IMG/VR virus record: IMGVR_UViG_3300037714_000226
Span: 1 to 56,405 of that record
DNA from: a virus
Lineage: Duplodnaviria; Caudoviricetes
Direction: 5' to 3' (one strand)
DNA: 56,405 nt
The notes below the pieces were generated by a model. The model made no database searches. It was not told the DNA's origin and was given only the letters and a program-made list of their open reading frames with translations. Below are positions 11,352 to 39,192 of this stretch, in pieces. The position numbers were made by a program, and so were the translations under genes. Position 1 is the first letter of the stretch. Every line of letters begins with the position of its first letter.

Positions 11352-14300
11352 CGCCCGGCTCGAATGTTGGCGTCCCGCCTACAATACCCTGGTGGTCGGC
11401 CTTGGTACCACTCTTCTCTTCCATCATCACCTTTCCACCCGACACCCAAGAGTCATCTGGTTTCTCCTGGCCGTCGCTGACCGATAGTCCTTTGACCGGA
11501 GGCACTGGTCGGCCAAGCATCCTTTTGGTCAACGAAAAGACGGCACCAGCAAGAGCGTCTGCAACGTCCTTTGATCCGATGACCTCGTTGCCGTCGGGAC
11601 CCGTCATCCGGTCAGGGTGGTCGATCTTGACCCGGCCGCCGGATTTCATGATTCGCTGCACTGACCGCAACTCAGCTTCCAACCACGGGTGAGGATGAAG
11701 AACGACACGCCCTTCATAGATGGCGTCCTTGAGTGTGTCGTAGGCGTCAGAAGTCTTGTCAACCGAGACCACCTCGGCCTCGATACCGCGCTTCCTGAGT
11801 TTCTGAAGAGCATCCGCGGAGTTATGGGATACGATTCCGTTGGCCACGTACGACGGATCCCCATCAACTTCCAGATCGAAAACCTCCGCCTCAGACGAGT
11901 GGATGTCCACCACTCTCACAAACTTCCGACGACCCTTCACTACCGAATGACGCTCCAACTCCGCTTGCTTGCGCTGGTAGGAAAAACCAACCGTATCCAG
12001 AAAGTGTCGTCTCGATCCCCTCAAGCCAACAACGTACTGGAACCCATCGGATACATAGTCTCCAGGACGACCTCTCTCCACGGTGGTGAGGCACGACTCG
12101 ATCCCAAAATCCACCCGAAGCATCAGGCGAACTTGATCTGCCAGTTTTCTGTGCTTGGTTGACAAGGAGACTTTTCCGTCGATCCGCCCAACGTTCCCAT
12201 CAGCAGCAAACAAGCCACGCAGGAAAGCGGCACGCACCCTACGGCTACTTCTAAGCACTGGGAGTGGCACGAACGGTTTCACAAGTCCGTTGCAGTTCAT
12301 CCACCGAACTAGCCACCTAGAGCTGACCGACAGAGTCCCCACCACTCCCCCGGTACCTCTGAAATCCGGCGCGACTCCGAAAAGTGACCGGAAGATCTGC
12401 GCTGCATCATCAGCCTCGTCAGCGGTAACCGTCAGCCTGACCCCGTCCATTTGGATCTGCCCATCCCCCCACACCAGGCCCAGCCACTCGGCGAGCGATG
12501 GGTTCATTTGCGTAGGAAACTCCCACGCGTCGATGCTAGACGGCCTCCAACCCCCTCGACGCCACCCAAGTTCGGACTTGTCGCCCACGAGTTCCGCATC
12601 TGGCGAATCCAGATCAGTTGGTCGATCCCAAACCCTAACCACGTCACCGGCACGGATCTCATCTAACCTCCTCCACTCCCACACGGGTTCTCTGGTTCGC
12701 CCCCACTCGTTCTCAACCAACCCGGTCCACCCAACCTGGACCTCAATGCGGTGCCTGTGCGTGCCCTCAAGCACATCCCCGTCCCGGGTGGTCACCCGAA
12801 GCGTTTCTCGGCGCCCGAACGAAAATACCTGCCGAACCTTGCGAGCACCAGACCGAGACTGGACCTCATCCCCGACAACCACTTCCTCAATAGGAATAAT
12901 GCCTCGTCCGGTGTGGATGAGCGTGCCCTTCGCCAAGCACTGGTACTGATCCATGGAGACGTAGCCTATTTGAAAGCCATGTCCCGAGAACTGGTAGAGG
13001 ATTGACCGGACGTCACTGAGCATGATCTCGTCCCCCGGCGGCGGCTTGATCCTCAGCACAAGATCGGATTCGATGACCGGAGCTAACTCGTTGTACTCTA
13101 TGCCGAACGGGTCGCGCCTGATGACCTCCTTCCACCTGGCGATGTGAGCGATGACCAGGCCGGTGCAGTCTGCGGTGAGCGATGAGTCCCAATGCGCATA
13201 ACGGATGGCTCCTGGATGCCGAAGTGGGCGCCACTGCTGTTCCATCACGCCCCCGGGAAGACGCTGTTCGTACGACTCAGCAATGGATCCCCAACGGATG
13301 GCGAGCGGTGTCCCAGCCACCCACGTGTGAGTAGGCCCCGAACCTTCGTCCCCTAGCGGATTGGTGAGAACGTCAGCCCCCATGTCCACCGACTTCGTGA
13401 TCATGTCGATCCGAGTCATGAATCGCGTGATGGCCTCAGTCGCGATGCCAGCGATCTCACGAAGGGCGTTATCGATGTCACGCTCAAAATCGTTGCGCCA
13501 CTCTGTCGGGACCTCGATAACGCGCAGTCCCATCTCCTCCCATCGGATCTTCTCCGCCTCGACATTGGCGTCTCTTTGGAGGATTCGACTCTGTATCTTC
13601 TCGTTGCCAGCTACGACGTAGAACATCTCTCCAGAGTAGTTCCCTGGCTTCACGTCCCACGTGGAGTATTCACGGACGAAGAAACTCTGATCGTCTGTCT
13701 CCTTCGCCTGCTGAATCCGCTTCTCGATAAAGGCGGTCGGTCGCTCTTTTGAAGAGACAGTAAGAAGCACACCGGGAAGGCGACCAACCTGCTGGAAACG
13801 CGACTTGATGCGGCGAACGATGCTCTTGTGGATCTTCTCGCCGAGGTCTTCGACTACAAACTTTCCCGAGTTGTCGATCGTCTTTTGGTCGCCCATGAAC
13901 GAAGTGTTGTGAACCACCACGCCATTAGCGATGAAGTTCCCTGCGGGCACCGACATCACGTCAAATGTCGGACGGCTTCCCGCACTTCGGACTGAGACAA
14001 CCCGGGCCACAGCTTGCGTTCGTCCCAGACCTCGAAGGTCCACCCTTTTTCCTTGCAGAAGTCGCGGCAAGCCTCGAACTTCACCTTGTTCTTTCCGTAA
14101 CCAAAGCTGCGAGGCTTGACCTCCACCAGCACCACGGTGCCATCGGTCTTGCGGACCTCGAAGTCCGGCAGCGTCCAGCGTGCCTTGCCATCCATGGCAT
14201 AGGGAACCCCGTAGGGCTCGTACGAGAAACTCTCGACAGAGGAGTCCTCGTCCAGAAGTCGCATCGCGTGCTTCTCCCACAGCGACCGGTAGCCACACCG

Positions 14301-16983
14301 GCCACCCTTCTTCGTATTGACGTACCCCTTGTACTTGAACGTCGAGTTGGCCCAGCGTCGAACATTGGCCTCGCTTATCTTTTGTTTGGTCTCCTCCGAA
14401 TGCGAAAATTCCCTGGCCCGATTTCGCTCCGCCAGCTTCCTCTTGAACTCCTCTGTGTGACGAAACAATCGCTTCACCTTGCCCATCTTCTTTCGGTAGC
14501 CCGGATCCTTCCACCGGACCCGCATCCTTTCGGATGCTGCTTGGCGGGACTCCTCCGACCAACCCTTCGGCGCCGACTTCTCCAGCTTTAGCCGGTCTCG
14601 CTCCTTCTTGATGTGCCCCTCCAAGCCATCGTCTGTCACATCCGTCACATCTATCCCTGACTTCCGAGCCTTGGTTCTGATGTTGGACAGTCGAATCTTG
14701 CGTTTCGTCTCCTCCGACCTCAGCGGCAGTTTCCCCTTGAGGGCTTTCCTCGAAACAGAGATCTTGGTTTTGGTCTCTTTCGTGTGCTTCCTGCCCAATA
14801 CGAACTACCTCATCTCCTGCCCTGAGCTGGTCCAGCGGCACGTACCCTTGTCCAACCACAAGGAACGGATGCTCCGATGTCGCCGTAACCACGGTGCCGT
14901 CATCAAACTCGACGTCGAACACGTCGGTGTTGGTGGCCTTCCTGATAGTCCCGGTTGAAGCAACCAGATCCCCCGTCTCCTCGTTGAACGACACGATTCC
15001 TCGAACGATCGTTCCGTCGCCACGGAACATCTCATCAACCCTCTTGTACCCGTCGACGGTGAGGACACGAGTGGATCCTACCACACACTCGTCGATGAAC
15101 CCACTGAAAACGTTAAGTCCGATGATAGCGGTTGATCGCGTTGACCCGGCGACCACCCAGATCTGATTTGGGAACTCGATCTCCAGAGAACTAGGCGCGA
15201 ACCGAAGGTGTTTGAAGTTCTCGCGGAAGTAGGGTGAGTGATCGATCTTTCCCTTCAACTCCTGGATAGCCACACGCCTAGCAACCTTCTCGGACGGAGC
15301 GAGCATTGCCACGTAGATAGCCGACCCATCACTCAGTCCATAGGCTCGCTGCGGATGACGTAGGCAGCTCATCTGGTAGAGCACGTAGGCCATCGCGCAC
15401 GTCGCGAAGTAGCTATTGTGAACGATGGGACCACCGTTGATGACCATGTTCCGCGTCGACGGCACGCTGATCTCGTACACATCCTGCTCGCCAGTCACGA
15501 CGATGGACTCGACCCGATCCCACACGACGTCGCTCGCCATCCTGACGTACCGGTAGTACCTTCCCCGGTACCCAGTCTTCTCGCACAGGTCCACGAACTT
15601 CTGGGTTCCCATCATGGACCCCTTCATCAGGTTGCCCATGGAGAGCCACTCCTTGTTGGTCCACGGGCCCGTTTCCATCCTGATCTCCTTCAACTCCTCC
15701 ACGCCGATGGGCACCACGTCCCAGTTGGTGTTGGACCGGACCGACATCGCCTGCTCCCGAAGTTCTCGGCACGCCTCCTCCTTGCCAGGAATGATTCCCA
15801 CACGATCCAGGAAGAGGAGTTGGCTAGGTGCGTCAGCGATCTGGAGCCTCCACGCGTCGTGAAACGGACCCCCTCGGACAGCACGCTTCGGCTTGTAGGA
15901 CTTGCGGGCCACGATCCCAAATCGCCTCAGGAGCGCCTGGAGGTCGTCCACAAGGCCCTCTGAAGACAACCCGATCTCGATTTTCCTGGGAGACCCCAGG
16001 TAGACGCTGCCATCTGTGAACACCCATCTCAGGAACATGGCTAGCTGCTTGTCGGGAAGCCCAAAAAACGACGCTGGTACACGCTTCTCCGTCGAGTTGC
16101 AGTCCAACGCGAGGGAACGAACGAACGGAAGCATTCCCCTGAGGTAGACGTGATGAGCCCCTTTCTTGAACACATCTCGCCCGACCCCACCCCAGCCACT
16201 GATACGAGATGCCGACTCGATTACCTGGTCTACCAGGCGTCGATCGCCTTTCACGTACTCACACGAGCCATGCCCTAGCTTGGACCCGTCCGCGACAAGA
16301 GCAGCAGCAACCAGTACCTCGTCGTCAGTCCTTGGGTCCCCATGGTCGGGCGCCGGCACTCTCCTGGCCACCGCAACCATGTCCCCAGGATTCATCTCCC
16401 CGAGAACCCTGTAGCCACCAGGCACCCGAACCCTGTGATCCAGGGACACCTCGAACCACTGCCCCGAGGCCAGAGTAGCCTTGGCACACACCTTTCGACC
16501 GCTCTTCCATACCCGGTTGACCCGCTCCGATCCGACGAGCCCATCGTCGGTCATCGACGCAATCGAAGAGCAGCACTCTTCCTTGACACTCCTCCTGTTT
16601 CCTGTACCCTGGTCTACGTAAATAGTTGATATTGCTAGACATTTCCCCCAACCGATTGACCCACCGAGCGCTCCCTCGTGGTAGTCGCCATCGAACAACT
16701 CGACGAGGTCTTGCTTCAGCTTCGGATACAGGGTCCGGCCGATGTGACCGATGTAGTAGTCGTCATCCAGAAAGCGCTCAACAGACACCGGCCGTATCCG
16801 GTAGTCGATGGACGTCAGCTTGCTGAAATACTCAGGGAGGTTTCCGCCGATCTTCTCTAGGGTCTCGATGACCGCGGTCTGCTCTCTGAGGGTCATTCCC
16901 TCCAACTCAGCAGAGAGTCGCTCTTTTTCGTCTTCAAGATCCCGAACGGAGCGCGGCCGTCCTTTGTCGGAGATGATACTCAC
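11323..16983 (-). CDS. terL: Large terminase subunit with three inteins (about 710 aa spliced)
   Basis: Walker A GSIGWGK|S, Walker B GFIDE|T, nuclease motifs HWDSS..DCTG, SMDQYQ|S, KIDHP...SKDVADALAG; directly upstream of portal. Confidence 0.95.
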   Translation of the reverse strand: MSIISDKGRPRSVRDLEDEKERLSAELEGMTLREQTAVIETLEKIGGNLPEYFSKLTSIDYRIRPVSVERFLDDDYYIGHIGRTLYPKLKQDLVELFDGDYHEGALGGSIGWGKCLAISTIYVDQGTGNRRSVKEECCSSIASMTDDGLVGSERVNRVWKSGRKVCAKATLASGQWFEVSLDHRVRVPGGYRVLGEMNPGDMVAVARRVPAPDHGDPRTDDEVLVAAALVADGSKLGHGSCEYVKGDRRLVDQVIESASRISGWGGVGRDVFKKGAHHVYLRGMLPFVRSLALDCNSTEKRVPASFFGLPDKQLAMFLRWVFTDGSVYLGSPRKIEIGLSSEGLVDDLQALLRRFGIVARKSYKPKRAVRGGPFHDAWRLQIADAPSQLLFLDRVGIIPGKEEACRELREQAMSVRSNTNWDVVPIGVEELKEIRMETGPWTNKEWLSMGNLMKGSMMGTQKFVDLCEKTGYRGRYYRYVRMASDVVWDRVESIVVTGEQDVYEISVPSTRNMVINGGPIVHNSYFATCAMAYVLYQMSCLRHPQRAYGLSDGSAIYVAMLAPSEKVARRVAIQELKGKIDHSPYFRENFKHLRFAPSSLEIEFPNQIWVVAGSTRSTAIIGLNVFSGFIDECVVGSTRVLTVDGYKRVDEMFRGDGTIVRGIVSFNEETGDLVASTGTIRKATNTDVFDVEFDDGTVVTATSEHPFLVVGQGYVPLDQLRAGDEVVRIGQEAHERDQNQDLCFEESPQGETAAEVGGDETQDSTVQHQNQGSEVRDRCDGCDRRWLGGAHQEGARPAKAGEVGAEGLVGGVPPSSIRKDAGPVEGSGLPKEDGQGEAIVSSHRGVQEEAGGAKSGQGIFAFGGDQTKDKRGQCSTLGQLDVQVQGVRQYEEGWPVWLPVAVGEARDATSGRGLLCREFLVRALRGSLCHGWQGTLDAAGLRGPQDRWHRGAGGGQASQLWLRKEQGEVRGLPRLLQGKRVDLRGLGRTQAVARVVSVRSAGSRPTFDVMSVPAGNFIANGVVVHNTSFMGDQKTIDNSGKFVVEDLGEKIHKSIVRRIKSRFQQVGRLPGVLLTVSSKERPTAFIEKRIQQAKETDDQSFFVREYSTWDVKPGNYSGEMFYVVAGNEKIQSRILQRDANVEAEKIRWEEMGLRVIEVPTEWRNDFERDIDNALREIAGIATEAITRFMTRIDMITKSVDMGADVLTNPLGDEGSGPTHTWVAGTPLAIRWGSIAESYEQRLPGGVMEQQWRPLRHPGAIRYAHWDSSLTADCTGLVIAHIARWKEVIRRDPFGIEYNELAPVIESDLVLRIKPPPGDEIMLSDVRSILYQFSGHGFQIGYVSMDQYQCLAKGTLIHTGRGIIPIEEVVVGDEVQSRSGARKVRQVFSFGRRETLRVTTRDGDVLEGTHRHRIEVQVGWTGLVENEWGRTREPVWEWRRLDEIRAGDVVRVWDRPTDLDSPDAELVGDKSELGWRRGGWRPSSIDAWEFPTQMNPSLAEWLGLVWGDGQIQMDGVRLTVTADEADDAAQIFRSLFGVAPDFRGTGGVVGTLSVSSRWLVRWMNCNGLVKPFVPLPVLRSSRRVRAAFLRGLFAADGNVGRIDGKVSLSTKHRKLADQVRLMLRVDFGIESCLTTVERGRPGDYVSDGFQYVVGLRGSRRHFLDTVGFSYQRKQAELERHSVVKGRRKFVRVVDIHSSEAEVFDLEVDGDPSYVANGIVSHNSADALQKLRKRGIEAEVVSVDKTSDAYDTLKDAIYEGRVVLHPHPWLEAELRSVQRIMKSGGRVKIDHPDRMTGPDGNEVIGSKDVADALAGAVFSLTKRMLGRPVPPVKGLSVSDGQEKPDDSWVSGGKVMMEEKSGTKADHQGIVGGTPTFEPGDGPVPFIKG
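11821..12939 (-). mobile_element. Terminase intein 3 (373 aa) with LAGLIDADG endonuclease
   Basis: CLAKGTLI...GTHRHR...WLGLVWGDG...FLRGLFAADG...GIVSHN followed by Ser. Confidence 0.95.
13906..15087 (-). mobile_element. Terminase intein 2 (394 aa) at Walker B, carrying an out-of-frame endonuclease gene
   Basis: CVVGSTRV...ATSEHPF...GDEV, then about 265 aa of G/E/Q/R-rich non-domain sequence, then TFDVMSV...GVVVHN followed by Thr. Confidence 0.93.
13956..14798 (-). CDS. Nested endonuclease: NUMOD3-like repeats plus TnsA-N-like PD-(D/E)XK domain, +1 frame inside terminase intein 2
   Basis: TTG start with SD GAGGT 8 nt upstream; repeats HTKETKTKIS, RSEETKRKIR, HTEEFKRKLA, HSEETKQKIS; YRSLWE...YEP...PDF...VEVKP...GWTFEVWDE. 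Confidence 0.9.
   Translation of the reverse strand: MGRKHTKETKTKISVSRKALKGKLPLRSEETKRKIRLSNIRTKARKSGIDVTDVTDDGLEGHIKKERDRLKLEKSAPKGWSEESRQAASERMRVRWKDPGYRKKMGKVKRLFRHTEEFKRKLAERNRAREFSHSEETKQKISEANVRRWANSTFKYKGYVNTKKGGRCGYRSLWEKHAMRLLDEDSSVESFSYEPYGVPYAMDGKARWTLPDFEVRKTDGTVVLVEVKPRSFGYGKNKVKFEACRDFCKEKGWTFEVWDERKLWPGLSQSEVREAVRHLT
15415..16641 (-). mobile_element. Terminase intein 1 (409 aa) at Walker A with LAGLIDADG endonuclease
   Basis: CLAISTIY...VSLDHR...AAALVADG...FLRWVFTDG...PIVHN followed by Ser. Confidence 0.93.
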
Positions 16984-16988
16984 TCAGA

Positions 16989-17720
16989 TCATCCGGCAGC
17001 TTGTTCGCCTCCGCCGTCCTCGTCTTCGTCTTCCTCCTTGGCCAACATCGCCTTCTGGTTGGCCTTCAGGCGCTCCACGATCGAGATGACCCGTCGCCTC
17101 GACCTCGGGTCATTGAGCACCTCAGCGGTCTCCCTGGAGTAGCCGTCGAAGTCTCTGACGTCGCCGCGGCCAGCGGTATCGCCGCGTAGGATTCCGAGTT
17201 TCTCTTTCACTGTCACACGCTTCATGAGCAGATCGGCCGCTGTTGAGAATTCCTTGGCGGTCATGTCCGAGAAAACGTTGACCTGGTGCTCGCGCTCAAT
17301 GAGTCGGTCGAGGCGCTCCCTGGCAGACAAGTAGAGACCCTCCAACTCGTGCAACTCCTCGACACCCTCTTTGACCCGTTTGTAAGCAGCTCGGGCCATT
17401 GCGGACGGCAGAGCGACCTTGTCGACCTCGTCGTCCCGTCCGGTGTCGTACCACTCCGGTACGTTCTCGGCCTGGATCTCGCCTCGCACCCCGGCTTCGG
17501 TCCGGGCCATGCTGTTCATCTCTTCGATGAGCGCCCGTCTCTTCTCCGCCAGGGCGTTGACCAGGGTCTTGTGCTTGATGTCAAGCAGAGCCTCCTGATC
17601 GTCTTGGATGAACGTTGCCACGTCAGATGCGCTCGTATTTTCGAGCAGCATCTTCTTCACCGTCTCCAAAAACGGAAGGTTTTCGATGAGTTGGGCCACG
17701 TTGGGCCTGTTGCGTGCCAC
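16989..17720 (-). CDS. Probable small terminase subunit
   Basis: Helical 243-aa protein immediately upstream of terL; function inferred from position only. Confidence 0.55.
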   Translation of the reverse strand: MARNRPNVAQLIENLPFLETVKKMLLENTSASDVATFIQDDQEALLDIKHKTLVNALAEKRRALIEEMNSMARTEAGVRGEIQAENVPEWYDTGRDDEVDKVALPSAMARAAYKRVKEGVEELHELEGLYLSARERLDRLIEREHQVNVFSDMTAKEFSTAADLLMKRVTVKEKLGILRGDTAGRGDVRDFDGYSRETAEVLNDPRSRRRVISIVERLKANQKAMLAKEEDEDEDGGGEQAAG

Positions 17721-17769
17721 GGTTGCTACCTTTGCGAACGGTTTCTACCGAACAAGATAGCGTAGACCG

Positions 17770-17785: not shown

Positions 17786-17814
17786 AAGCAAGACAATGCA
17801 TGACGATACGTGGC

Positions 17815-29598: not shown

Positions 29599-29606
29599 AG
29601 ATGGCC

Positions 29607-30068
29607 TCAGTTCACGTCATGCGGCCCGTTCGGGTCGTGCTTGTCGTAGTCGTCCATGATGGTGTGTGCCTCTTCCTCGGACAGTTTTGGATTCCTGTAA
29701 TTGGGCATCGGAGCAGGTCTCGGTCGCGGTTGCTGCACCCTGTCATGAAGCAGTGCTTTTGCCGATCGGTTGGCAACCGCCGACAGGTAAGTCAGCACCT
29801 CATGGATCGCGTGCGCGAGTATGGCAACGCCGCCGCCGAAGAGCATGGACTCAAACAATCGGTTTCCGCAGTAGATGCTCCACCACCACCCGACCCAGAA
29901 TCCGACCCAGAGTTGCTCGCTCATGACGTTGACGAGCCAGATCCAAAACCCGTGGCTGCGAGTTCCAAACCACGCCTTGAGTGGATCGAATCCAATCGAG
30001 GCGGACACGATGATAGCGAACCCGACCAACCCGATGATCGACTCCACGCTGATGCCTTTGATACCCAT
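29607..30068 (-). CDS. Membrane protein (about three hydrophobic segments)
   Basis: IIGLVGFAIIVSA, LWVGFWVGWWW, MLFGGGVAILA; SD AAGGTAGGT. Confidence 0.75.
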   Translation of the reverse strand: MGIKGISVESIIGLVGFAIIVSASIGFDPLKAWFGTRSHGFWIWLVNVMSEQLWVGFWVGWWWSIYCGNRLFESMLFGGGVAILAHAIHEVLTYLSAVANRSAKALLHDRVQQPRPRPAPMPNYRNPKLSEEEAHTIMDDYDKHDPNGPHDVN

Positions 30069-30077
30069 GACCTACCT

Positions 30078-32531
30078 TTAGTACGGAACGTCGGCGAAAT
30101 CCTTGTCGTCGTCGCCGGTGTCTTTTTTCGACGGTCGCTGAGTCGAATCTACGCGAGTTCCAATCTGTTCGAACTTCATCGACTCCATGTCCCATCGAAT
30201 GACAACGTGACTTGCTCTGGCCTGACGCCGAGCCTTCAGCGGCACGAACATGAGCTGCTTATCCATCTTCATGTCGATGTCCTGAAAGAGCGCAAAGAGG
30301 TTGTGACAGTTGTGGACTACGACACCGTGACACAGGAACCGGTGGTCCTCGTGGTCAACGGTGATGTCCCACATTTCCTCTTCGCCACCAACGCGAGAAC
30401 CTCGCACCTGCTCTAACACGAAGTCGTGGTGCTCCGGATAGACCGTCGTGGTCGACCACCGACCAGGCGTTTTATTGCGATCCACCAGTAACTGAGCAGC
30501 CTTCCTGACAGATCGCAGTCCCACCGACCCCATCCACCGCTGGGTCTCCTCACGACCCAGCCACACCCGAAGCGAATCCCTGGTACCGTCATAGGAGTAC
30601 CTCCTCACGGTCGGGTTGAACCCACCCATGCGAAGCAACTCGGTTGCGCCCATGGCCAGGTCGTACGACGTGCTCGTCAATGTGAGTTGACCGTTCTTTG
30701 TGATGCACCCGTCGGCCTCCATCAGCCCTCGCACAAAAGCCAGCCTCACGTTTCTTGGTGCCTCCCAAATCCTTTGAGGAACCCTCTTCTCGTAGGACAG
30801 ATCCGGCCGCATTCCCAGCCACCTTAGCCACCTCACAAACCCTACGGAGCAAACGTCCACAATGTCACACGTCTGCCTCTCATTGCTGGACCGCGGCTTG
30901 TGCCGCGCATTCAGACCAAAAGCCGCGAGCTGTTCAGTGATCCACTTTGCAATCTCTGGATCACGCGGATCGATCGCCCAAGTGACACGGTTACTCGCTC
31001 TCACACAGCCGTCGCCCACCGTGTATCCGATCAACTCAGCCAGTTCCTCCGTCCATGACTGTGGGTAGACCACCTGAGCCTCGTTGTTGTGCTGCCGATC
31101 TCCGTCAAACCCACGCAAGTCGACAGACCCTCCGCTGGCCACCCTCTGTCGAATCACCCAGTCTCCATGGCGCAGATCACCAGACCGGACCCACGACACA
31201 GCGCCTTCCCCTGTCATCGATAGGATCTTGTGGTCCTGACTCGCTCGCAATTCGAACCCACTGAACAACTCCAGCGTCAGGACTTTCTTGGGACCCGTTC
31301 GCCACGACCTTGCTGTAGCCGTCACGTCCCCCACCACCACCTCACCACCGTCGACCAGTGACTCAATGGGAACCGCACCGCGTGGCGTATAAACCAGCGA
31401 CCCCTTCGGGACGCAGTCCTGTAGAAGCGCATCAGAGAACGCGATCGCATTCTCCAAACCGCCGGTCGCTTTACCGCGCTTCACGGAGACTGAATCGTTT
31501 TTGCGGACCTTACCATCGCGCGATAGCTGGCTGATGCCCAGGATCGGCACCTGCTTTCGTCTACTCAAGCGCCGCATCCAATCGAGGGTGTCGACGAACC
31601 GATCTTGTCGCGCGCTCCGGTTGCCCTTTTTCTCTTCGATCACCCGAAGCATGTAGACCGAGTCGAACACTACCAACCCAGGCTCGACAGCATCGATCGT
31701 CTGCTCGATCAGGTCCGCTTCGAGTCGCTCTTCGTCATCGAGAATGTAGAAGTGGTTGCCGGTCTCTTTCAGCTTCTCGATGGTCTCCTTCAGGGATGGC
31801 TCACCGAACTGACCGAGGCTGCCGCCAACGAGATCTCCGTATGGCAACTCACCAACCTTTGAGACGCAACGCTCTGCCAGCTCCACTTCGTTCATTTCAG
31901 GACTGACGACCAGCACCTTGATTTTGGAGACTGACCACACGTAGAGGGCGATGATGAGCGCGACCCATGTCTTGCCTGTTCCTGGGCGTGCTGCGAAGAA
32001 CGTCAGCGTCCCTGGCCACATACCCAAGGTCATCGCGTTCATGGCTTCCCACGGGAACGGAACACCTATCTCACCGCGCTTGGTACGGTCATACAACTCC
32101 TGCACCTTCGGAGCTGAATCGGCGAGTGTGCTGAGTCTGACATGCTGAGCCTTGGCGTTCTTGAGCGCGTTGGAGAGTCTGTGGACCTCTGAAACCGAGT
32201 CGGACTGCTCACCTTCTTCGAGTTTCTCCAGACTCGTATGCAACCCATGCTGAAGGCACCGATACTCGTATCGACTCCAAAGCTGATCGGCGATGTAGGA
32301 GAGAGTGGCTTGCTCCTCTTCTTCTGGTGGACGGATCGGCGCTCCTGTTTGCTCGACCACGATCCCGAGACCAGGCATCTCGCCGTGTTCCTTTTTGAAG
32401 GTCTCGACGAAGTCCCAGGCGGAACGAAAGAGGCCGGTGAACAGCATCGTCCCGATGCCAAGATCACGCGCCTCTTTGAATGTAGCTTCGCTTCGCGTTG
32501 CGTACCACAACGCCGCTGAATCGAGATCCAC
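30078..32531 (-). CDS. dnaB: DnaB-like replicative helicase with one intein (about 448 aa spliced)
   Basis: ARPGTGKT, VSPEM, VFDSVY, ISQLSR, SDALLQD|CHN, KARR. Confidence 0.93.
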   Translation of the reverse strand: MDLDSAALWYATRSEATFKEARDLGIGTMLFTGLFRSAWDFVETFKKEHGEMPGLGIVVEQTGAPIRPPEEEEQATLSYIADQLWSRYEYRCLQHGLHTSLEKLEEGEQSDSVSEVHRLSNALKNAKAQHVRLSTLADSAPKVQELYDRTKRGEIGVPFPWEAMNAMTLGMWPGTLTFFAARPGTGKTWVALIIALYVWSVSKIKVLVVSPEMNEVELAERCVSKVGELPYGDLVGGSLGQFGEPSLKETIEKLKETGNHFYILDDEERLEADLIEQTIDAVEPGLVVFDSVYMLRVIEEKKGNRSARQDRFVDTLDWMRRLSRRKQVPILGISQLSRDGKVRKNDSVSVKRGKATGGLENAIAFSDALLQDCVPKGSLVYTPRGAVPIESLVDGGEVVVGDVTATARSWRTGPKKVLTLELFSGFELRASQDHKILSMTGEGAVSWVRSGDLRHGDWVIRQRVASGGSVDLRGFDGDRQHNNEAQVVYPQSWTEELAELIGYTVGDGCVRASNRVTWAIDPRDPEIAKWITEQLAAFGLNARHKPRSSNERQTCDIVDVCSVGFVRWLRWLGMRPDLSYEKRVPQRIWEAPRNVRLAFVRGLMEADGCITKNGQLTLTSTSYDLAMGATELLRMGGFNPTVRRYSYDGTRDSLRVWLGREETQRWMGSVGLRSVRKAAQLLVDRNKTPGRWSTTTVYPEHHDFVLEQVRGSRVGGEEEMWDITVDHEDHRFLCHGVVVHNCHNLFALFQDIDMKMDKQLMFVPLKARRQARASHVVIRWDMESMKFEQIGTRVDSTQRPSKKDTGDDDKDFADVPY
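30309..31415 (-). mobile_element. DnaB intein (369 aa) with LAGLIDADG endonuclease
   Basis: CVPKGSLV...ASQDHK...LIGYTVGDG...FVRGLMEADG...GVVVHN followed by Cys. Confidence 0.95.
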
Positions 32532-33190: not shown

Positions 33191-33263
33191 GGGGATCGCT
33201 CCTGACTATCGTTCCTGACTATATGGTAATGCCATGTCACGTCACTCGCCACTTCCAGTGGGA

Positions 33264-33842: not shown

Positions 33843-33887
33843 TGCTTTGCTACCCCTTTTTACTACATCGATAGCGATAGTCCAACA

Positions 33888-35561: not shown

Positions 35562-35671
35562 TGTTCCCTCAATGGCGTGGGTCCGAGATCGATTGGTCTG
35601 CGTCGAGTGACACAGCCTCGATACCCTCCTCACGGTTTTTCTGAAGTGCCCCGGACGTTACTCGACGAAGA

Positions 35672-36055: not shown

Positions 36056-36965
36056 CTCCGAGCACCGGGATCTTGTACTCGCCAGCGATCGCCTTCAGGC
36101 CAACCTTGGTGAGCGCATGCATGACGAAACTCTCGACCTCAGCCTTCGCATGAGTCACGACCCTGTCTGCGCTTTCCTCGAACTGCTTCACGACGAATGG
36201 GGCGTTGCTTTCCAACTCCATGACGACGCGGTCGAGCACTGCAACGATCTGGCGGACGCGGGTCTTTGAGACAGCCGACTTGCCGTCCACGATCTCTTTG
36301 GCTTCGGTCCGTGCGTTCTTGGCCATGTCGACGAGATCGCTGATCTGGTCCTTGAAGCCGTCGCGGATCTTTTTGTACTCCGCCTGCGTATCCTCAGGAA
36401 CGTCTTCCATCCTGATGTGATTTATCCGGCGGATGGTGCACGGGATCCCGCCTCCCATGTTCATCGTGGTGATGGCCTCGGCGTACTGGGCCGCGCTCAT
36501 GTCCACTTCTATGAGCGTGTTTCGCTCGTAGTAGTGATCACTCGACAGGCCATGAGACACCGTCGCCCGCATCACACTGAGTGTGATGTAGTGGTTGTGG
36601 TGGTCGAGATGCGATCCGAACAACCGCGTTGCACCGCTAACCCGATGGAAACTGACAAGCCCGAACGACTCGTGATCCTCTCGAAACTCGTCTCCAGAGT
36701 ACCGCTTGACCGACTCGGTCTTGTACGGAATGCGCTCTGGATCCAGCACCCCATGCTCATAGCGATTGATAGCGTCTTCGAGGGCGTGGACCTCTCCAGT
36801 GATGTCGCTGAGAACCGCGGGCCTGCTCTCAAAAAACCGCCCGGCCTCCTTGCCCTTCTTCGTCCTCTCGTGAAAGTCGTGAACCGTGCCGACGAGACGC
36901 TTGGCCCGTTGAAGGAGAAGCTCTACAGCTTCCTCGCTCCCCTTCTTAATGTCCTCGATCGGCAT
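36036..36965 (-). CDS. Conserved phage hypothetical protein
   Basis: SD AGGAAGG; ESFGLV...LFGS...IEVDMSAAQYAEAITTMNMGGGIPCTI. Confidence 0.8.
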   Translation of the reverse strand: MPIEDIKKGSEEAVELLLQRAKRLVGTVHDFHERTKKGKEAGRFFESRPAVLSDITGEVHALEDAINRYEHGVLDPERIPYKTESVKRYSGDEFREDHESFGLVSFHRVSGATRLFGSHLDHHNHYITLSVMRATVSHGLSSDHYYERNTLIEVDMSAAQYAEAITTMNMGGGIPCTIRRINHIRMEDVPEDTQAEYKKIRDGFKDQISDLVDMAKNARTEAKEIVDGKSAVSKTRVRQIVAVLDRVVMELESNAPFVVKQFEESADRVVTHAKAEVESFVMHALTKVGLKAIAGEYKIPVLGDGEDHE

Positions 36966-36989
36966 TTTGGCCCTTCCTTCCTGCTAACC

Positions 36990-37018
36990 ATTGTTAGCAT
37001 ATGAAGAGCGTTTGTCAA
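36990..37018 (-). promoter_or_regulatory. Sigma70-like promoter, TTGACWADCG family
   Basis: TTGACA-N17-AACAAT; -35 region TTGACAAACGC identical to the copy at 24359. Confidence 0.6.
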
Positions 37019-37023
37019 CAGCA

Positions 37024-39192
37024 TCAAAACCCGAGGGTGGTTTGCTTTTCGTCGACTTCCTGGGGGTTGGCGGTTCGGTGGGTGATTTCCGGCACTCGAT
37101 GCAGTCGTTTGGCGTAGTCGCATCGAGCCTTGGCGATCCGAACGTACGGCTGCTCGTCGGTGTCGGTCAGTTCGATGCCGAGGAAGCTCTTACCCTCCCA
37201 GATCGCCGCTACGCCCGTTGAGGCGACCCCGCAGAACGGATCGAGCACTTTGCCACCCGGAGGTGTCACGAGGCGCACAAGGTGTCGCATGAGTCCAATG
37301 GGTTTCACTGTTGGATGAGTATTCTTTCGCTTCGTGCTCCTACCAGCACCAGCGCGAGGATTGGCTCGACCAGCGGAACCTTCGACACGGGTTGGATCAA
37401 CCCACTGGTGATCGAACTCATCCAACCCCATCTCACGCTCACCGGTGCTCGCTTTTGGAGCAACGACCCCGGTCGGGAGAATGCGCATCAGCAACTCTTC
37501 AGGAAGCGCCGTGATGATGGCCTGGTTCTCCTGGTCGCCGATCCGAAAGTGCTTGGTGTAAGGACCGAGCACACCGCTCAACCCAATCTCGGCGTCGACA
37601 TCCATGATGACCGACACGCCATCAAGTCCATCAACGTCTTCGTCCGAACAGATAACGGCTGACGGCCATCGGCCCTCAGAAGTTAGCCCTATCGTTCTGC
37701 TTCCTGACAAACCGGATCCGTACACGTTATTCGCATCAGCACCGGTCTCGTGATCTCGTACTACAAGTGGCCGGTCGACCCCAGGGAGACGGCACCCTTT
37801 GATGTAGAGCCCGCCAGTGCCGTACTTCAGGATGTTGTCGACCAGTGTTCGGCCCTCGAATGGCTTGCGCGCTAACAGCCACGGCTCCTGATTCTTGAGC
37901 GCGGTGCCCCAACCATCCCACCTCGCAGCCTCTTCAGTCGCAGCAGCGGTGACGACGCCTACCTGATCCGGATTCGAAAAGCCGTAGTTATCGTGTTCGG
38001 TCCGACCCTTCTCGATGTTCGCTCTGCGAACGAAGTCCGGTCGTACACCAACCACCTCACGCTCTTGACCAAGTCTCTTGTCGATGGCCTTGGAGATGTT
38101 GAGGCTTTTGGGAAAACTCGATGCGCTCACCCAAAAACCCATGGTCCGCAATTCGAACCCGGCATCCTCAACAGCACTCGCGAGTCGGTGGATGGTGCGA
38201 TCGGCGCCGAAAACCACAGCGTGAGCCCCTGGCTTCAAAACGCGAAGCACCTCTCGCCATAGACCCACATCGAACGCCACCTTGCTGCCGTCCCACCTCT
38301 GTCCCATGAACCCGGTGGAGGCTAACTTCTGGGGGCGTACGACAAGATCAAACGAGAGTGCCCTTCCTGTGGAACCTTCTACGACGCGGACACGTCGCGA
38401 CTCAAGCACGGACGGCAAACCACCTGTAGCCGGCGTTGTTCGTACAAGCTTCGCGCAAGTCGCCTTCGCCATGGCCGCGAACATGAATGCGCCACCTGTG
38501 GTGAACTGGTCTTCCGCTCCCCTTCCTGCGCCAACCCGAAACACAGGGAAATCTTCTGCTCCCGCGAGTGCGCCTTCAAGGGCCGCAAGCGGGTCAGTGG
38601 TCTGACCTACAACCTCTCCGCCGAGGTTCGTGAAGCACTCCGAGAGAATGGCAAGAACCTCTCGAAGTTCCGGTGGCCCATGAAGTCCGCCAACCTCGAT
38701 GCCTTCCGCCGTAAATGCGCAGCCAACATGAGCGAGCGTATTCAGAACGGAGACATCACCCCCGTCTCCAAGTTCGAGCGCGAAACTGCCGATGTGATGC
38801 GGCGCCTCGGATTCAACATCGAGACATCCGTTGGCATTCGTCAGGCCAATGGACGCTTCGTTGCCGTCTTCGACATCACCATCCCTGATCGACGCATCGC
38901 CATCGAGTGTCACGGTTCCTTTTGGCATGGTGGCCGATGGAGTTGGGAGCGACCCACCAAGGCACAGGCGCGCAATCTCGCCTACGAAGAACGAAAGCGC
39001 GTCCTCGCCATCAACCTCGGCCTGGATCTTCGGGTGTTGTGGGAACACCAGTTCCACGAAGACCCGATTGGGGCTTGCCTTACCGTCTGCCGATAACTCG
39101 TACGGCGGATCGGTCACCAAGGAATCGAAGAGGCTGTCAGGGAACGACTTCAACACCTCACGGCAATCGCCATGCCGAATGTCGATGATCAC
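37024..39192 (-). CDS. Beta-class N6A/N4C DNA methyltransferase with an in-frame insertion of about 257 codons
   Basis: GDCREVL, VTDPPYEL [insert] GFMGQRWD, LRVLKPG, HPTVKP, VLDPFCG, GIEL. Confidence 0.92.
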   Translation of the reverse strand: MIIDIRHGDCREVLKSFPDSLFDSLVTDPPYELSADGKASPNRVFVELVFPQHPKIQAEVDGEDALSFFVGEIARLCLGGSLPTPSATMPKGTVTLDGDASIRDGDVEDGNEASIGLTNANGCLDVESEAPHHIGSFALELGDGGDVSVLNTLAHVGCAFTAEGIEVGGLHGPPELREVLAILSECFTNLGGEVVGQTTDPLAALEGALAGAEDFPVFRVGAGRGAEDQFTTGGAFMFAAMAKATCAKLVRTTPATGGLPSVLESRRVRVVEGSTGRALSFDLVVRPQKLASTGFMGQRWDGSKVAFDVGLWREVLRVLKPGAHAVVFGADRTIHRLASAVEDAGFELRTMGFWVSASSFPKSLNISKAIDKRLGQEREVVGVRPDFVRRANIEKGRTEHDNYGFSNPDQVGVVTAAATEEAARWDGWGTALKNQEPWLLARKPFEGRTLVDNILKYGTGGLYIKGCRLPGVDRPLVVRDHETGADANNVYGSGLSGSRTIGLTSEGRWPSAVICSDEDVDGLDGVSVIMDVDAEIGLSGVLGPYTKHFRIGDQENQAIITALPEELLMRILPTGVVAPKASTGEREMGLDEFDHQWVDPTRVEGSAGRANPRAGAGRSTKRKNTHPTVKPIGLMRHLVRLVTPPGGKVLDPFCGVASTGVAAIWEGKSFLGIELTDTDEQPYVRIAKARCDYAKRLHRVPEITHRTANPQEVDEKQTTLGF
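38329..39096 (+). CDS. Antisense nested endonuclease: two Zn-ribbon repeats plus DUF559/Vsr-like domain (255 aa, CTG start)
   Basis: Frame of track ORF 38680-39096 is open back to TAA 38323; GGAGG (38317-38321) lies 7 nt before CTG 38329; CPSCG...CSRRC, CATCG...FCSREC; SKFE...FD...IECHGSFWHG...LRVLWE. Confidence 0.88.
   Translation: MGAYDKIKRECPSCGTFYDADTSRLKHGRQTTCSRRCSYKLRASRLRHGREHECATCGELVFRSPSCANPKHREIFCSRECAFKGRKRVSGLTYNLSAEVREALRENGKNLSKFRWPMKSANLDAFRRKCAANMSERIQNGDITPVSKFERETADVMRRLGFNIETSVGIRQANGRFVAVFDITIPDRRIAIECHGSFWHGGRWSWERPTKAQARNLAYEERKRVLAINLGLDLRVLWEHQFHEDPIGACLTVCR

What the first reader, a model, noticed from the sequence alone, without database searches (positions are those of the whole stretch)
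13956..39096. Common strategy: dual-coded endonucleases hidden from gene callers
Seen: two independent cases in one window (13956-14798, same strand +1; 38329-39096, antisense) of a DNA-binding-repeat plus PD-(D/E)XK-type nuclease gene wholly inside a host ORF that stays open, each next to a catalytic motif (Walker B; DPPY), each with a good SD and a weak start codon (TTG, CTG). Inference: a class of homing element that preserves its host by overlapping coding rather than in-frame fusion, favoured by high GC. This is my best candidate for an undescribed system; novelty could not be checked.
Basis: inference. Interest (0 to 1): 0.85.

Follow-up and report, generated by a model that had tools for sequence, protein, structure and literature searches.

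The report
Two hidden overlapping homing-endonuclease genes
Two DNA-cutting "homing" enzyme genes really are written over other phage genes (one a base out of step inside a self-splicing insert of the DNA-packaging enzyme, one backwards inside a DNA methylase), and selection keeps both host reading frames open; this kind of layout was first described in 2025, so these are new variants, not a new system.

Summary
Both observations are confirmed.

**Case 1.** ORF 13956-14798(-) encodes a NUMOD3 + TnsA-like PD-(D/E)XK nuclease. It lies in the +1 frame inside the middle of an intein, the second of three in the large terminase gene, inserted just after the Walker B-like FIDE. The host frame reads junk there but stays open. 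This happened in 0 of 5000 synonymous shuffles, and the same layout occurs in 6 of 6 related viral loci (4 distinct).

**Case 2.** ORF 38329-39096(+) encodes a Vsr-like nuclease with Cys-rich repeats. It is codon-aligned antisense to a 783-nt insert placed just after the DPPY motif of an N6/N4 methylase, with no intein or intron signal. In the window alone the open host frame is not significant (6%). It is open in 7 of 7 further loci that were found through the nuclease, including one at 49% GC. Empty alleles are the rule (70 of 80 loci).

**Mechanism (inferred).** Free-standing homing-endonuclease cassettes invaded an intein and a coding sequence, and survive because they leave the host frame unbroken.

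**Novelty.** The kind is in print: the ShiLan domain (2025), non-canonical actinophage inteins (2025) and the dnaX intein (2026). The endonuclease family in case 1, and the antisense, intein-less combination in case 2, were not found in those texts. Verdict: new variant of a known kind.

The parts
11323..16983 (-). Host gene 1: large terminase subunit precursor, 1886 aa, carrying three inteins
   Evidence: ORF. Pfam finds Intein_splicing, Hint_2, PT-HINT and LAGLIDADG_3. The extein stretch 1027-1348 matches annotated terminase large subunits at 30-33% identity.
15415..16641 (-). Intein 1 (residues 115-523), inserted after GWGK (Walker A-like). LAGLIDADG-like motifs by eye; Pfam's second LAGLIDADG_3 stretch was not located.
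   Evidence: Boundaries GWGK|CLAIST...IVHN|SYF. Pfam Intein_splicing covers 152-523. The Walker A label is recalled, not tested.
13906..15087 (-). Intein 2 (residues 633-1026), inserted after FIDE (Walker B-like). N-terminal Hint part, about 280 junk codons, then the C-terminal splicing blocks.
   Evidence: Boundaries FIDE|CVVGSTRV...GVVVHN|TSFMG, with TSEH at 702-705. PT-HINT covers 640-727. Same site and same boundary residues in 4 distinct relatives.
15088..15099 (-). Codons for FIDE, the Walker B-like motif just before intein 2
   Evidence: Translation. The Walker B assignment rests on recalled knowledge of terminase ATPases.
13956..14798 (-). Nested gene 1: NUMOD3 + TnsA-like PD-(D/E)XK endonuclease, 280 aa, TTG start, +1 frame relative to the intein
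   Evidence: Model pLDDT is 84 and the best solved-structure matches are TnsA 1t0f/1f1z at E 9e-5 to 2.5e-4. P211-D212, E226 and K228 are invariant.
14805..14817 (-). Ribosome-binding stretch GGAGATGAGG (14808-14817), written in the intein codons for GDEV. It holds an ATG-AGG-TAG mini-frame that ends 6 nt before the TTG.
   Evidence: Read directly. Relatives have GAGGAGG or CAGGAGG before an ATG at the same intein motif.
13956..14030 (-). True dual-coding stretch: the nuclease C-terminus (WDERxLWPGLSQSEVRxAVxxLT) overlaps the start of the intein C-terminal splicing region (VARVVSVRSAGSRPTFD)
   Evidence: The nuclease C-terminus is nearly invariant in 13 of 17 aligned homologues. The last 25 codons are shown in both frames.
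11821..12939 (-). Intein 3 (residues 1349-1721), canonical LAGLIDADG intein
   Evidence: Boundaries DQYQ|CLAKGT...IVSHN|SADAL. Pfam Hint_2 covers 1349-1394 and LAGLIDADG_3 covers 1583-1665.
37024..39192 (-). Host gene 2: N6/N4 DNA methyltransferase, 722 aa including the insert
   Evidence: Pfam N6_N4_Mtase 9e-21. Empty homologues of 464-481 aa share up to 75% identity.
39100..39111 (-). DPPY catalytic motif codons (residues 28-31)
   Evidence: Translation and alignment.
38314..39096 (.). Insert of about 783 nt (host residues L33-T293), absent from empty alleles
   Evidence: Alignment A2: empty alleles read DPPYEY-GFMNQRWD. One contig in run X4 leaves the window exactly at 39096/39097 and goes on as an empty allele.
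38329..39096 (+). Nested gene 2: Vsr-like endonuclease with two Cys-rich repeats, 255 aa, antisense and codon-aligned to the methylase. Start is CTG (or a nearby non-canonical codon).
   Evidence: Model pLDDT is 81 and the best solved-structure matches are Vsr 1cw0 (8e-5), 1vsr, and I-Bth0305I 3r3p (7e-4). D182, E193 and H200 are invariant.
38314..38325 (+). GGTGGAGG (38314-38321) followed by the in-frame TAA (38323-38325), just upstream of the CTG. On the other strand these read A-S-T and L of the methylase frame.
   Evidence: Read directly, with codon frames shown.

Best explanation
The window is part of a T4-like, intein-rich phage genome from sediment metagenomes. It carries two independent free-standing homing-endonuclease cassettes, each a ribosome-binding site plus an ORF. 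Both have lodged inside coding sequence without breaking the host reading frame.

**Cassette 1.** A NUMOD3/TnsA-like nuclease sits between the N- and C-terminal splicing blocks of an intein, which is inserted just after the Walker B-like motif of the large terminase.
- The nuclease is read in the +1 frame from its own internal start.
- Ribosomes translating the terminase read straight through the same DNA as a stop-free, unconserved linker.
- That linker is discarded with the intein by protein splicing.

**Cassette 2.** A Vsr-like nuclease lies on the opposite strand, directly in the methylase coding sequence 1-2 codons after DPPY. There is no intein or intron.
- Its codons mirror the host codons, so the methylase frame stays open as long as the nuclease avoids TTA, CTA and TCA.
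- The methylase is presumably made with a 261-residue loop.

**How it spreads.** In both cases the nuclease is inferred to cut the uninvaded allele, so that repair copies the cassette (with the intein in case 1) into it.

**Shown versus inferred.**
- Shown: both genes are real, the host frames are kept open by selection, the layouts are conserved in relatives, and empty alleles exist.
- Inferred: translation from the internal starts, splicing, tolerance of the loop by the methylase, and homing.
For: **Both nested genes are real**
- Pfam, PHROG and homologue families support both genes.
- Confident models match TnsA for gene 1 and Vsr / I-Bth0305I for gene 2.
- Catalytic-type residues are invariant: P-D...E-x-K in gene 1, and D...E...H in gene 2.
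- Only these 2 of 113 nested ORFs hit Pfam.

**Case 1: the host frame is under selection**
- It stays open in 0 of 5000 permutations in the window.
- In the window and 4 relatives the counts are 0, 3, 0, 0 and 0 of 2000.
- Pooled over these five loci, no codon before an AA/AG/GA codon ends in T (0 of 436), against 150 of 1024 elsewhere.
- The nuclease homologue lies in the +1 frame of a 1062-1795-aa terminase ORF in 6 of 6 viral loci found through the nuclease (4 distinct). The intein is at the same xDE|C...VHN|(T/S) site in all of them.
- C1, TxxH, HN and T+1 are present in the window's intein.
- The nuclease frame is more conserved than the host frame (0.47 against 0.33 amino-acid identity), and nuclease codon position 3 is the least conserved.
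- Relatives start with ATG after GAGGAGG or CAGGAGG, or with TTG.

**Case 2: the host frame is under selection**
- In 7 of 7 further viral loci found through the nuclease, the mirrored frame is open across it and continues into a DPPYELS...GFM methylase ORF.
- Simulated chances per locus are 0.004-0.39, with a product of 3e-10.
- The nuclease frame is more conserved than the host frame in 27 of 28 pairs. Nucleotide identity by nuclease codon position is 0.63, 0.74 and 0.46.
- The filled methylases have diverged to 38-85% identity and still have full-length ORFs.
- No Rfam family matches, and the insert is filled by the ORF.
- Pfam finds no Hint domain in the methylase.

**Empty alleles and assembly**
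- 70 of the 80 best methylase loci are empty at this site.
- One empty-allele contig breaks at 39096/39097.
- Contigs from other runs bridge both junctions with no differences.
Against: - No expression, splicing, cleavage or methylation data exist.
- The window's copy of gene 2 has GCG where 7 of 7 relatives have ATG (5), GTG (1) or TTG (1). It must rely on CTG or another odd start, so it may be poorly made or decaying.
- No promoter-like site was found for the antisense gene. That scan covers only the sigma-70 type.
- In the window alone the open frame of case 2 is within chance (about 6%).
- The loci are related by descent: L010 and L012 nucleases are 87% identical. The reference codon sets may include spurious ORFs. 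The product of probabilities is therefore overstated.
- Pfam supports the N-part of intein 2 only below its cut-off (PT-HINT 22.9 against 27.7 bits).
- Only one contig shows an empty methylase allele in the same habitat.
- No empty terminase allele was examined.
Confidence: 0.75

Rival explanations
1. The nested ORFs are chance open frames of a GC-rich genome and not genes.
For: The window has 113 nested stop-to-stop ORFs of at least 110 aa. It also has antisense ORFs of up to 357 aa.
Against: - Only these two hit protein families.
- Both have homologue families: 21 other proteins for gene 1 and 344 representatives for gene 2.
- Both give confident nuclease folds.
- In both, codon position 3 is the least conserved in the nuclease frame.
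Confidence: 0.01
2. Case 1 is an ordinary intein with an in-frame endonuclease domain, put out of frame by two sequencing or assembly indels.
For: The record is a metagenome assembly, estimated 29% complete.
Against: - The same +1 layout occurs in 4 distinct other assemblies.
- Under this reading the host frame would be open only by chance, which happened in 0 of 5000 shuffles.
- The nuclease has its own start right after an in-frame stop, and its own ribosome-binding site.
- No longer protein with this nuclease in frame was found (weak evidence).
Confidence: 0.02
3. Case 2 is removed at the RNA level (an unrecognised intron with an antisense endonuclease gene), or the methylase is a dead gene. 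Either way the open frame is incidental.
For: - In the window alone the open frame has about 6% chance.
- Antisense endonuclease genes in group I introns are known (recalled).
- An insert right after the catalytic DPPY might be expected to harm the enzyme.
Against: - No Rfam match even at E <= 10.
- The 783-nt insert is filled by the 768-nt ORF plus its ribosome-binding site, leaving no room for an intron core.
- The frame is open in 8 of 8 loci, including at 49% GC where the chance is 0.004.
- The methylase ORFs are full length across 38-85% divergence.
Confidence: 0.07
4. The cassettes are relics. The nucleases no longer home, and the window's gene 2 is perhaps not even translated. They persist only because deleting them precisely is rare and the host frame must stay open.
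For: - The window's gene 2 lacks a canonical start codon, whereas 7 of 7 relatives have ATG, GTG or TTG.
- No RNA data exist.
- Nuclease and host identities correlate in case 2 (r = 0.64), which fits long co-descent.
Against: - Both nuclease ORFs are intact with invariant catalytic-type residues.
- The nuclease frames are under stronger purifying selection than the host frames.
- In several pairs the nuclease is more alike than the host. L010/L015 is 0.57 against 0.38. Window/L004 is 0.53 against 0.33-0.35. This hints at transfer.
- Empty alleles are common.
Confidence: 0.2
5. In case 1 the nuclease is made by programmed +1 ribosomal frameshifting from the intein frame, giving a fusion with the intein N-part, and not from its own start.
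For: The nuclease frame opens within the last codons of the intein N-part. The window's start is a weak TTG.
Against: - An in-frame stop lies 3 codons before the TTG in the window.
- Relatives have ATG preceded by GAGGAGG or CAGGAGG.
- Gene callers find stand-alone proteins of 262-366 aa.
- No slippery site was looked for or noticed.
Confidence: 0.04

Closest known systems
Non-canonical actinobacteriophage inteins (Gosselin, Arsenault & Gogarten, bioRxiv 10.1101/2025.01.02.630785; abstract, sections 8 and 15 and passages read)
   Same: - The endonuclease is encoded between the splicing blocks but in another frame or on the other strand.
- The intein frame stays open.
- The terminase large subunit is a frequent host.
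- The proposed origin is invasion of an intein by a free-standing endonuclease gene.
   Different: - Their same-strand case is an endonuclease VII-like gene in 'frame 3'. TnsA and NUMOD are not mentioned in the text (0 occurrences).
- Here the gene is NUMOD3/TnsA-like, in the +1 frame, in T4-like metagenomic phages rather than actinophages.
- tblastn of the nuclease against 50,697 GenBank phage records finds no full-length relative.
- Their supplements could not be seen.
ShiLan domain and Pacc40 insert: hidden HNH endonuclease in phage methylases (Arsenault, Gosselin & Gogarten, Genes 2025, PMC11855218; abstract and sections 1, 3 and 4 read)
   Same: - An insert in a phage DNA methylase that adds no stop to the host frame.
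- No intron or intein signature.
- It hides an endonuclease ORF that nearly fills the insert and ends in TAA at its edge.
- It has zinc-finger-like flanks and a disjunct distribution.
   Different: - ShiLan is on the same strand (third frame), is an HNH enzyme, and occurs in mycobacteriophages.
- Here the gene is on the opposite strand, codon-aligned, Vsr-like, and sits directly after DPPY.
- 'Antisense' and 'DPPY' do not occur in that paper.
- tblastn of gene 2 against GenBank phages finds nothing.
Fractured genes: split inteins with a free-standing GIY-YIG or Vsr-like endonuclease gene between the halves (Dassa et al., NAR 2009, PMC2677866; abstract and passages read)
   Same: - A free-standing endonuclease gene integrated inside an intein, mainly in phage.
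- The Vsr-like homing-endonuclease family.
- The endonuclease 3' end overlaps the downstream intein part by 6-69 bp.
- Vsr-like genes also occur as stand-alone inserts.
   Different: There the host gene is broken into two ORFs and rejoined by trans-splicing. Here the ORF is continuous, because the whole endonuclease gene is overprinted on an open host frame. It is the unbroken counterpart of that arrangement.
[quoted passage not shown] The antisense LAGLIDADG case of Gorbalenya 1998 is known to me only through citations in the 2025 preprint; that paper is not held.
   Same: An overlapping endonuclease ORF within an intein, explained as secondary invasion of a mini-intein. Filled and empty alleles coexist.
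   Different: It is a bacterial chromosomal gene with a different endonuclease family.
Vsr endonuclease and the I-Bth0305I catalytic domain (PDB 1cw0, 1vsr, 3r3p)
   Same: These are the best solved-structure matches of the gene 2 model (E 8e-5 to 7e-4).
   Different: Sequence identity is 17-20%. Pfam Vsr matches below its cut-off. Gene 2 also has an N-terminal half with two Cys-rich repeats.
TnsA N-terminal nuclease domain; T4 gp4-type 'head completion' proteins
   Same: - Pfam Tn7_TnsA-like_N matches above its cut-off.
- The model matches TnsA 1t0f/1f1z.
- PHROG 218 matches at 3e-19, and tblastn finds gp4-type genes in 294 phage records over 39-64% of the query.
   Different: Gene 1 adds NUMOD3 repeats and is nested in an intein. 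Identity to the phage genes listed is 29-34%, and the fold matches to TnsA are at 17%.

Membership tests
Intein (Hint-fold protein-splicing element): intein 2 | Cys/Ser at position 1, TxxH in block B, C-terminal HN, and Cys/Ser/Thr at +1 | tested here: met
   C633, TSEH at 702-705, H1025-N1026 and T1027. The relatives show the same boundary residues (C at position 1, VHN, Thr/Ser at +1) in 5 of 5 distinct loci; TxxH was checked only in the window.
Intein (Hint-fold protein-splicing element): intein 2 | Profile match to Hint / intein splicing domains | tested here: inconclusive
   PT-HINT covers 640-727 at E 1.1e-4, 22.9 bits against a cut-off of 27.7. Intein_splicing is strong for the whole protein (3 stretches), but the best stretch is intein 1. 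In relative L004, Intein_splicing covers 271-641 and spans the nuclease, above its cut-off.
Intein (Hint-fold protein-splicing element): intein 2 | Protein splicing activity | not testable with these tools
   Needs expression of the precursor.
Non-canonical intein with out-of-frame endonuclease (Gosselin et al. 2025) | Endonuclease ORF between the splicing blocks, same strand, different frame, with the intein frame open | tested here: met
Non-canonical intein with out-of-frame endonuclease (Gosselin et al. 2025) | Endonuclease VII-like enzyme in frame 3 | tested here: not met
   The enzyme is NUMOD3 + TnsA-like, in frame +1.
ShiLan-type hidden endonuclease insert in a phage methylase (Arsenault et al. 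2025) | Insert in a methylase gene that keeps the host frame open, with no intron or intein signature | tested here: met
ShiLan-type hidden endonuclease insert in a phage methylase (Arsenault et al. 2025) | HNH endonuclease on the same strand in the third frame | tested here: not met
   The gene is on the opposite strand and codon-aligned, with a Vsr-like fold.
Vsr-like / EDxHD homing endonucleases (Dassa 2009; I-Bth0305I) | Vsr-type nuclease fold with conserved acidic and histidine residues | tested here: met
   Foldseek matches 1cw0, 1vsr and 3r3p. D182, E193 and H200 are invariant in 17 sequences.
Vsr-like / EDxHD homing endonucleases (Dassa 2009; I-Bth0305I) | Literal E-D-x-H-D motif; Pfam Vsr at its curated score | tested here: inconclusive
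   The window reads ...IECHGSFWHG.... Pfam Vsr scores 22.2 bits against a cut-off of 27. No residue-level alignment to I-Bth0305I was made.
PD-(D/E)XK nuclease, TnsA-like | Pfam Tn7_TnsA-like_N at its curated score, a P-D...(D/E)-x-K motif, and the fold | tested here: met
   36.5 bits against a cut-off of 26.5. P211-D212, E226 and K228 are invariant. TnsA matches at E 9e-5.
Group I intron carrying a homing endonuclease gene | Structured intron core flanking the ORF | tested here: not met
   No Rfam match at gathering score in the window, nor at E <= 10 in 37900-39400. The insert is filled by the ORF.
Fractured gene / split intein (Dassa 2009) | Host gene broken into two ORFs by the endonuclease gene | tested here: not met
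   A single 1886-aa ORF in the window, and 1062-1795-aa ORFs in the relatives.
Homing endonuclease (functional sense), both genes | Cuts the empty allele and drives copying of its own gene | not testable with these tools
   Only indirect evidence: empty alleles in 70 of 80 loci, one empty contig at the exact junction, and the nuclease more alike than the host in some pairs.

The most novel reading that the evidence does not exclude
Read-through endonuclease cassettes are a distinct and widespread class of mobile element that needs neither an intron nor an intein. A bare ribosome-binding site plus ORF homes into the codons next to a catalytic motif, in either orientation. It persists because its own codon choice is shaped to leave the host frame stop-free, and the host enzyme works with a loop of about 260 unselected residues. 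The intein-embedded form would be the same cassette landing in a linker that tolerates anything, and would be the unbroken precursor of split-intein 'fractured genes'.
Probability: 0.4. Interest if true: 0.7.

Novelty: new variant of a known kind. Interest (0 to 1): 0.5.

Why it matters
- **Annotation.** Gene callers report only the long host ORF, or cut it, so such nucleases go unseen. One database homologue of the methylase starts only after the insert site, at MNQGWD. It may come from the contig of locus L010, whose frame is open across the insert; the link rests only on equal contig length.
- **Overprinting as a selected state.** The two cases give clean, quantitative examples: total avoidance of T-ending codons in 436 risky contexts, and total avoidance of three codons in 8 loci.
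- **Reach of the 2025-26 reports.** They extend those reports from actinophages and cyanobacteria to T4-like environmental phages, to a new endonuclease family, and to an antisense layout without an intein.
- **A testable model.** They offer material for the idea that inteins acquire endonucleases by invasion, and that split inteins arise when the invasion breaks the frame.
- **A possible tool.** If the methylase is active with the insert, the site after DPPY is a permissive loop of practical use.

Tried and rejected
**DNA and locus searches that gave little**
- Megablast of 11000-17200 against GenBank phages found no match.
- The search for related loci with the single proteins found nothing for gene 1. 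For gene 2 it found one weak locus, L003, which was not used.
- The one metagenome scan with alignment A1 chose a generic NUMOD3 pattern. It returned 33 distant loci (best-segment identity 27-52%, mostly over short stretches; L017-L049) that say nothing about the nested layout, so they were not analysed.
- A viral scan with the empty methylase P0028 found nothing.
- The search for longer, fused forms of gene 1 found none. The tool itself calls this weak evidence.

**Structure and regulation**
- Sequence search of solved structures gave nothing meaningful for gene 2, and only weak T7 endonuclease I hits for the gene 1 family.
- The promoter scan of 37800-39400 found no sigma-70-type site.
- The longer methylase matches in L052, L055, L058, L087, L091, L101, L115 and L085 turned out to be adjacent ORFs, not inserts.

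**Sequencing runs**
- No RNA holder is listed for 37024-39192.
- No contig joins across the insert (no joint).

**Literature and earlier notes**
- Paper PMC147447 (Gorbalenya 1998) is not held.
- No paper holds intein + TnsA + homing endonuclease in a relevant sense: 3 hits, all gene-editing or CRISPR reviews.
- One unrelated paper holds the six terms.
- Earlier notes of this scan hold nothing for this genome or for the gene 1 sequence.

**Considered and rejected:** chance ORFs, assembly frameshifts, an intron, and a programmed frameshift (see the rival explanations).


Full report
**Setting.** The window is a whole IMG/VR virus record of 56,405 bases, judged 29% complete. GC is 55-60%, and nearly all long ORFs are on the minus strand. 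Pfam on the large ORFs shows a T4-like portal, a prohead protease, RecA, and UvrD-, DnaB- and SNF2-type helicases. Many of these carry intein domains. Nearly identical DNA occurs in contigs of 13 sediment-metagenome runs, none of them RNA.

**Case 1: what is there.**
- ORF 11323-16983(-) is 1886 aa long. Its extein stretch 1027-1348 matches annotated large terminase subunits of cultured phages at 30-33% identity over at least 94% of its length.
- It holds three inteins:
  - Residues 115-523, after GWGK.
  - Residues 633-1026, after FIDE.
  - Residues 1349-1721.
- Intein 3 carries an in-frame LAGLIDADG domain. Intein 1 shows LAGLIDADG-like motifs by eye, but Pfam's second LAGLIDADG stretch was not located.
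- Intein 2 has a normal N-terminal Hint part: C633, TSEH at 702-705, and PT-HINT over 640-727 (below its cut-off). It also has a normal C-terminus (...FDVMSVPAGNFIANGVVVHN|T). Between them, about 280 residues are Gly/Arg/Glu/Gln-rich junk.
It encodes NUMOD3 repeats and a TnsA-like PD-(D/E)XK domain, both above Pfam's cut-offs.
- The gene has 21 other homologues at 28-65% best-segment identity, with invariant P-D...E-x-K residues. Its model has pLDDT 84, and the best solved-structure matches are TnsA.
- The ORF opens three codons after a TAG. It starts with TTG, 9 nt after GGAGATGAGG, which is written in the intein's GDEV codons.

**Case 1: is the open host frame chance?** No.
- Synonymous permutation of the nuclease gene leaves the host frame open in 0 of 5000 trials (mean 10 stops). 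Resampling from the window's codon usage also gives 0 of 5000 (mean 14 stops).
- In the window's other genes the same frame offset is open in 4 of 634 windows of equal length.
- The cause is visible. A host-frame stop arises when a nuclease codon ending in T precedes a codon starting AA, AG or GA. None of 96 such codons ends in T, against 32 of 184 elsewhere.

**Case 1: relatives.**
- A scan of viral contigs with the nuclease alignment returned 6 loci. L006 = L007 and L008 = L009 over the host ORF, so 4 are distinct.
- In 6 of 6 the nuclease lies wholly inside a same-strand ORF of 1062-1795 aa, in the +1 frame.
- The hosts belong to the same terminase family. The intein sits at the same xDE|C...VHN|(T/S)NF site, and the nested ORFs all carry NUMOD3 + TnsA-like domains.
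- Permutation keeps the host frame open in 0, 3, 0, 0 and 0 of 2000 trials. Pooled, 0 of 436 risky codons end in T, against 150 of 1024 elsewhere.
- Mean amino-acid identity is 0.47 in the nuclease frame and 0.33 in the host frame, or 0.29 without the last 25 codons. Nuclease codon position 3 is the least conserved. The nuclease is therefore the selected protein, and the host frame is selected only to be stop-free.
- The exception is the last 20 or so nuclease codons. They overlap the start of the intein's C-terminal splicing region and are nearly invariant in 13 of 17 homologues.
- Relatives L006 and L008 start with ATG after GAGGAGG or CAGGAGG. L004 and L005 start with TTG, as the window does.
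- Window and L004 exteins are 33-35% identical, but their nucleases are 53% identical and their intein C-parts 74%. This hints that intein and nuclease move together.

**Case 2: what is there.**
- ORF 37024-39192(-) is an N6/N4 methyltransferase. It reads ...VTDPPYEL, then about 260 residues of junk, then ...STGFMGQRWD....
- Empty homologues of 464-481 aa (up to 75% identity) read DPPYEY-GFMNQRWD.
- The insert is about 38314-39096.
- The ORF's codons are the exact reverse complements of the host codons. A host stop can therefore arise only from TTA, CTA or TCA in the nuclease, and it uses none.
- The protein has two Cys-rich repeats and a C-terminal nuclease. Pfam Vsr and MTES_1575 match only below their cut-offs, but there are 344 representative homologues, with full-length ones of 250-275 aa.
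- D182, E193 and H200 are invariant. The model has pLDDT 81, and its best matches are Vsr (1cw0, 1vsr) and the I-Bth0305I homing endonuclease.
- No Rfam family matches even at E <= 10. Pfam sees no Hint domain in the methylase.

**Case 2: chance?**
- In the window alone, yes, it could be chance. The host frame stays open in 317 of 5000 simulations, and in 46 of 689 equal-length windows of other genes.
- A scan with the close nuclease homologues is unbiased with respect to the host frame. It returned 7 viral loci.
- In 7 of 7 the mirrored frame is open across the nuclease and runs into a methylase ORF reading DPPYELS(N/A)DGK...GFM.
- Simulated chances per locus are 0.073, 0.004, 0.081, 0.079, 0.39, 0.008 and 0.056. 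The locus GC values range from 0.49 to 0.67. The product is 3e-10, which is overstated because the loci share descent and the reference ORFs were taken mechanically.
- The nuclease frame is more conserved than the host frame in 27 of 28 pairs (0.57 against 0.40). Nucleotide identity by nuclease codon position is 0.63, 0.74 and 0.46.
- The filled methylases differ by up to 62% and keep full-length ORFs.
- Among the 80 best methylase loci in viral contigs:

| State at the DPPY site | Loci |
|---|---|
| Empty | 70 |
| 96-114 nt between the motifs | 6 |
| Filled (the same contig as L010) | 1 |
| Motifs not found | 3 |

- Contigs from four other runs bridge both junctions with no differences. One contig leaves the window exactly at 39096/39097, and its continuation reads E|ISMMNKRWDG, which is an empty allele (a single contig).
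- A weakness: where 7 of 7 relatives have ATG (5), GTG (1) or TTG (1), the window has GCG. That leaves only the CTG two codons upstream, or another odd start.

**Control.** The window has 113 nested stop-to-stop ORFs of at least 110 aa. Only these two hit any Pfam family at E <= 1e-3.

**Mechanism.**
- I read both as free-standing homing-endonuclease cassettes that invaded coding DNA. One landed in the dispensable middle of an intein, so the overprinted peptide is spliced away. The other landed straight into a loop after DPPY, so the enzyme keeps the peptide.
- Selection then acts on the nuclease's synonymous sites to keep the host frame open.
- Translation from the internal starts, splicing, methylase activity and homing are inferred, not shown.

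**What is known.**
- A full-text search led to three works. Another led to a fourth.
  - Arsenault et al. 2025 (PMC11855218) describe the ShiLan domain: a same-strand, third-frame HNH gene hidden in a mycobacteriophage methylase insert that keeps the host frame.
  - Gosselin et al. 2025 (bioRxiv 10.1101/2025.01.02.630785) report 63 actinophage inteins with non-canonical endonucleases. These include in-frame HNH, antisense LAGLIDADG, antisense Vsr-like, and an endonuclease VII-like gene in frame 3. They propose invasion by free-standing genes.
  - Dassa et al. 2009 (PMC2677866) describe split inteins with a free-standing Vsr-like or GIY-YIG gene between the halves, overlapping the downstream half by 6-69 bp.
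  - Phillips et al. 2026 describe the dnaX intein with an out-of-frame endonuclease (abstract only).
- The kind is therefore known. I did not find the following in these texts:
  - A NUMOD3/TnsA-like endonuclease in this role (0 mentions).
  - An antisense endonuclease inside a methylase without an intein (0 mentions of antisense).
- Neither nuclease has a full-length relative in 50,697 GenBank phage records. The supplements of these papers could not be opened.

**Verdict.** This is a new variant of a known kind, of moderate interest.

Noticed in passing
window 7005-11351(-), 46567-50724(-), 52657-55608(-), 30078-32531(-), 11323-16983(-): The phage is crowded with inteins. The T4-like portal has Intein_splicing in 3 stretches, with HNH_3 and LAGLIDADG_3. 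The SNF2 helicase has Hint, LAGLIDADG and Hom_end. The UvrD helicase has Intein_splicing over 292-563, below its cut-off. The DnaB-like helicase has a LAGLIDADG intein over 407-741. The terminase has three. By domain hits that is roughly nine or more in 56 kb.
   Followed up: partly
window 14805-14813(-): A three-codon frame, ATG-AGG-TAG, lies in the nuclease's frame inside its ribosome-binding stretch. It ends 6 nt before the TTG start. It may be a re-initiation device or may mean nothing.
   Followed up: no
window 52657-55608(-), residues 292-563: The UvrD insert has intein splicing signals but no recognised in-frame endonuclease domain. No nested ORF of at least 110 aa there hit Pfam. It may be a mini-intein or may hold an unrecognised endonuclease.
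   Followed up: no
window 21814-23367(-): The RecA-like ORF is 517 aa, but the Pfam RecA match covers only 247-382 (profile positions 82-211). The first 246 residues are unexplained.
   Followed up: no
window 41814-45035(-), 40243-41817(-), 29601-30416(+): ORFs of 1073, 524 and 271 aa have no Pfam family at E <= 1e-3. The last is one of the few long plus-strand ORFs not contained in a longer one.
   Followed up: no
window 13956-14450(-) (nuclease domain of gene 1): The TnsA-like domain is related to T4 gp4-type 'head completion / head closure' genes. PHROG 218 matches at 3e-19, and tblastn finds hits in 294 phage records. The structural-sounding annotation covers a nuclease fold.
   Followed up: partly
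window about 39029 (run X5) and other loose ends: One contig follows the window up to 39029, inside gene 2, and then continues with unlike sequence. It may be another variant of the insert or a chimeric contig.
   Followed up: no
L010 (IMG/VR contig of 61,561 bases) and protein P0033: A database methylase of 430 aa starts at MNQGWD, just after the insert site. It may come from the contig of L010, whose frame is open for 828 codons across the insert; this link rests only on equal contig length. If so, it is an example of gene callers splitting such genes.
   Followed up: partly
L052, L055, L058, L091: Several viral loci carry two or more adjacent methylase-like ORFs (tandem paralogues). This made the tblastn matches look long.
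   Followed up: partly
L005 2759-8140: This relative's terminase ORF (1794 aa, running off the contig) carries further inserts besides the intein with the nested nuclease. These are an intein with LAGLIDADG after Walker A, one with HNH_3 over residues 1180-1528, and the start of another at its end.
   Followed up: no
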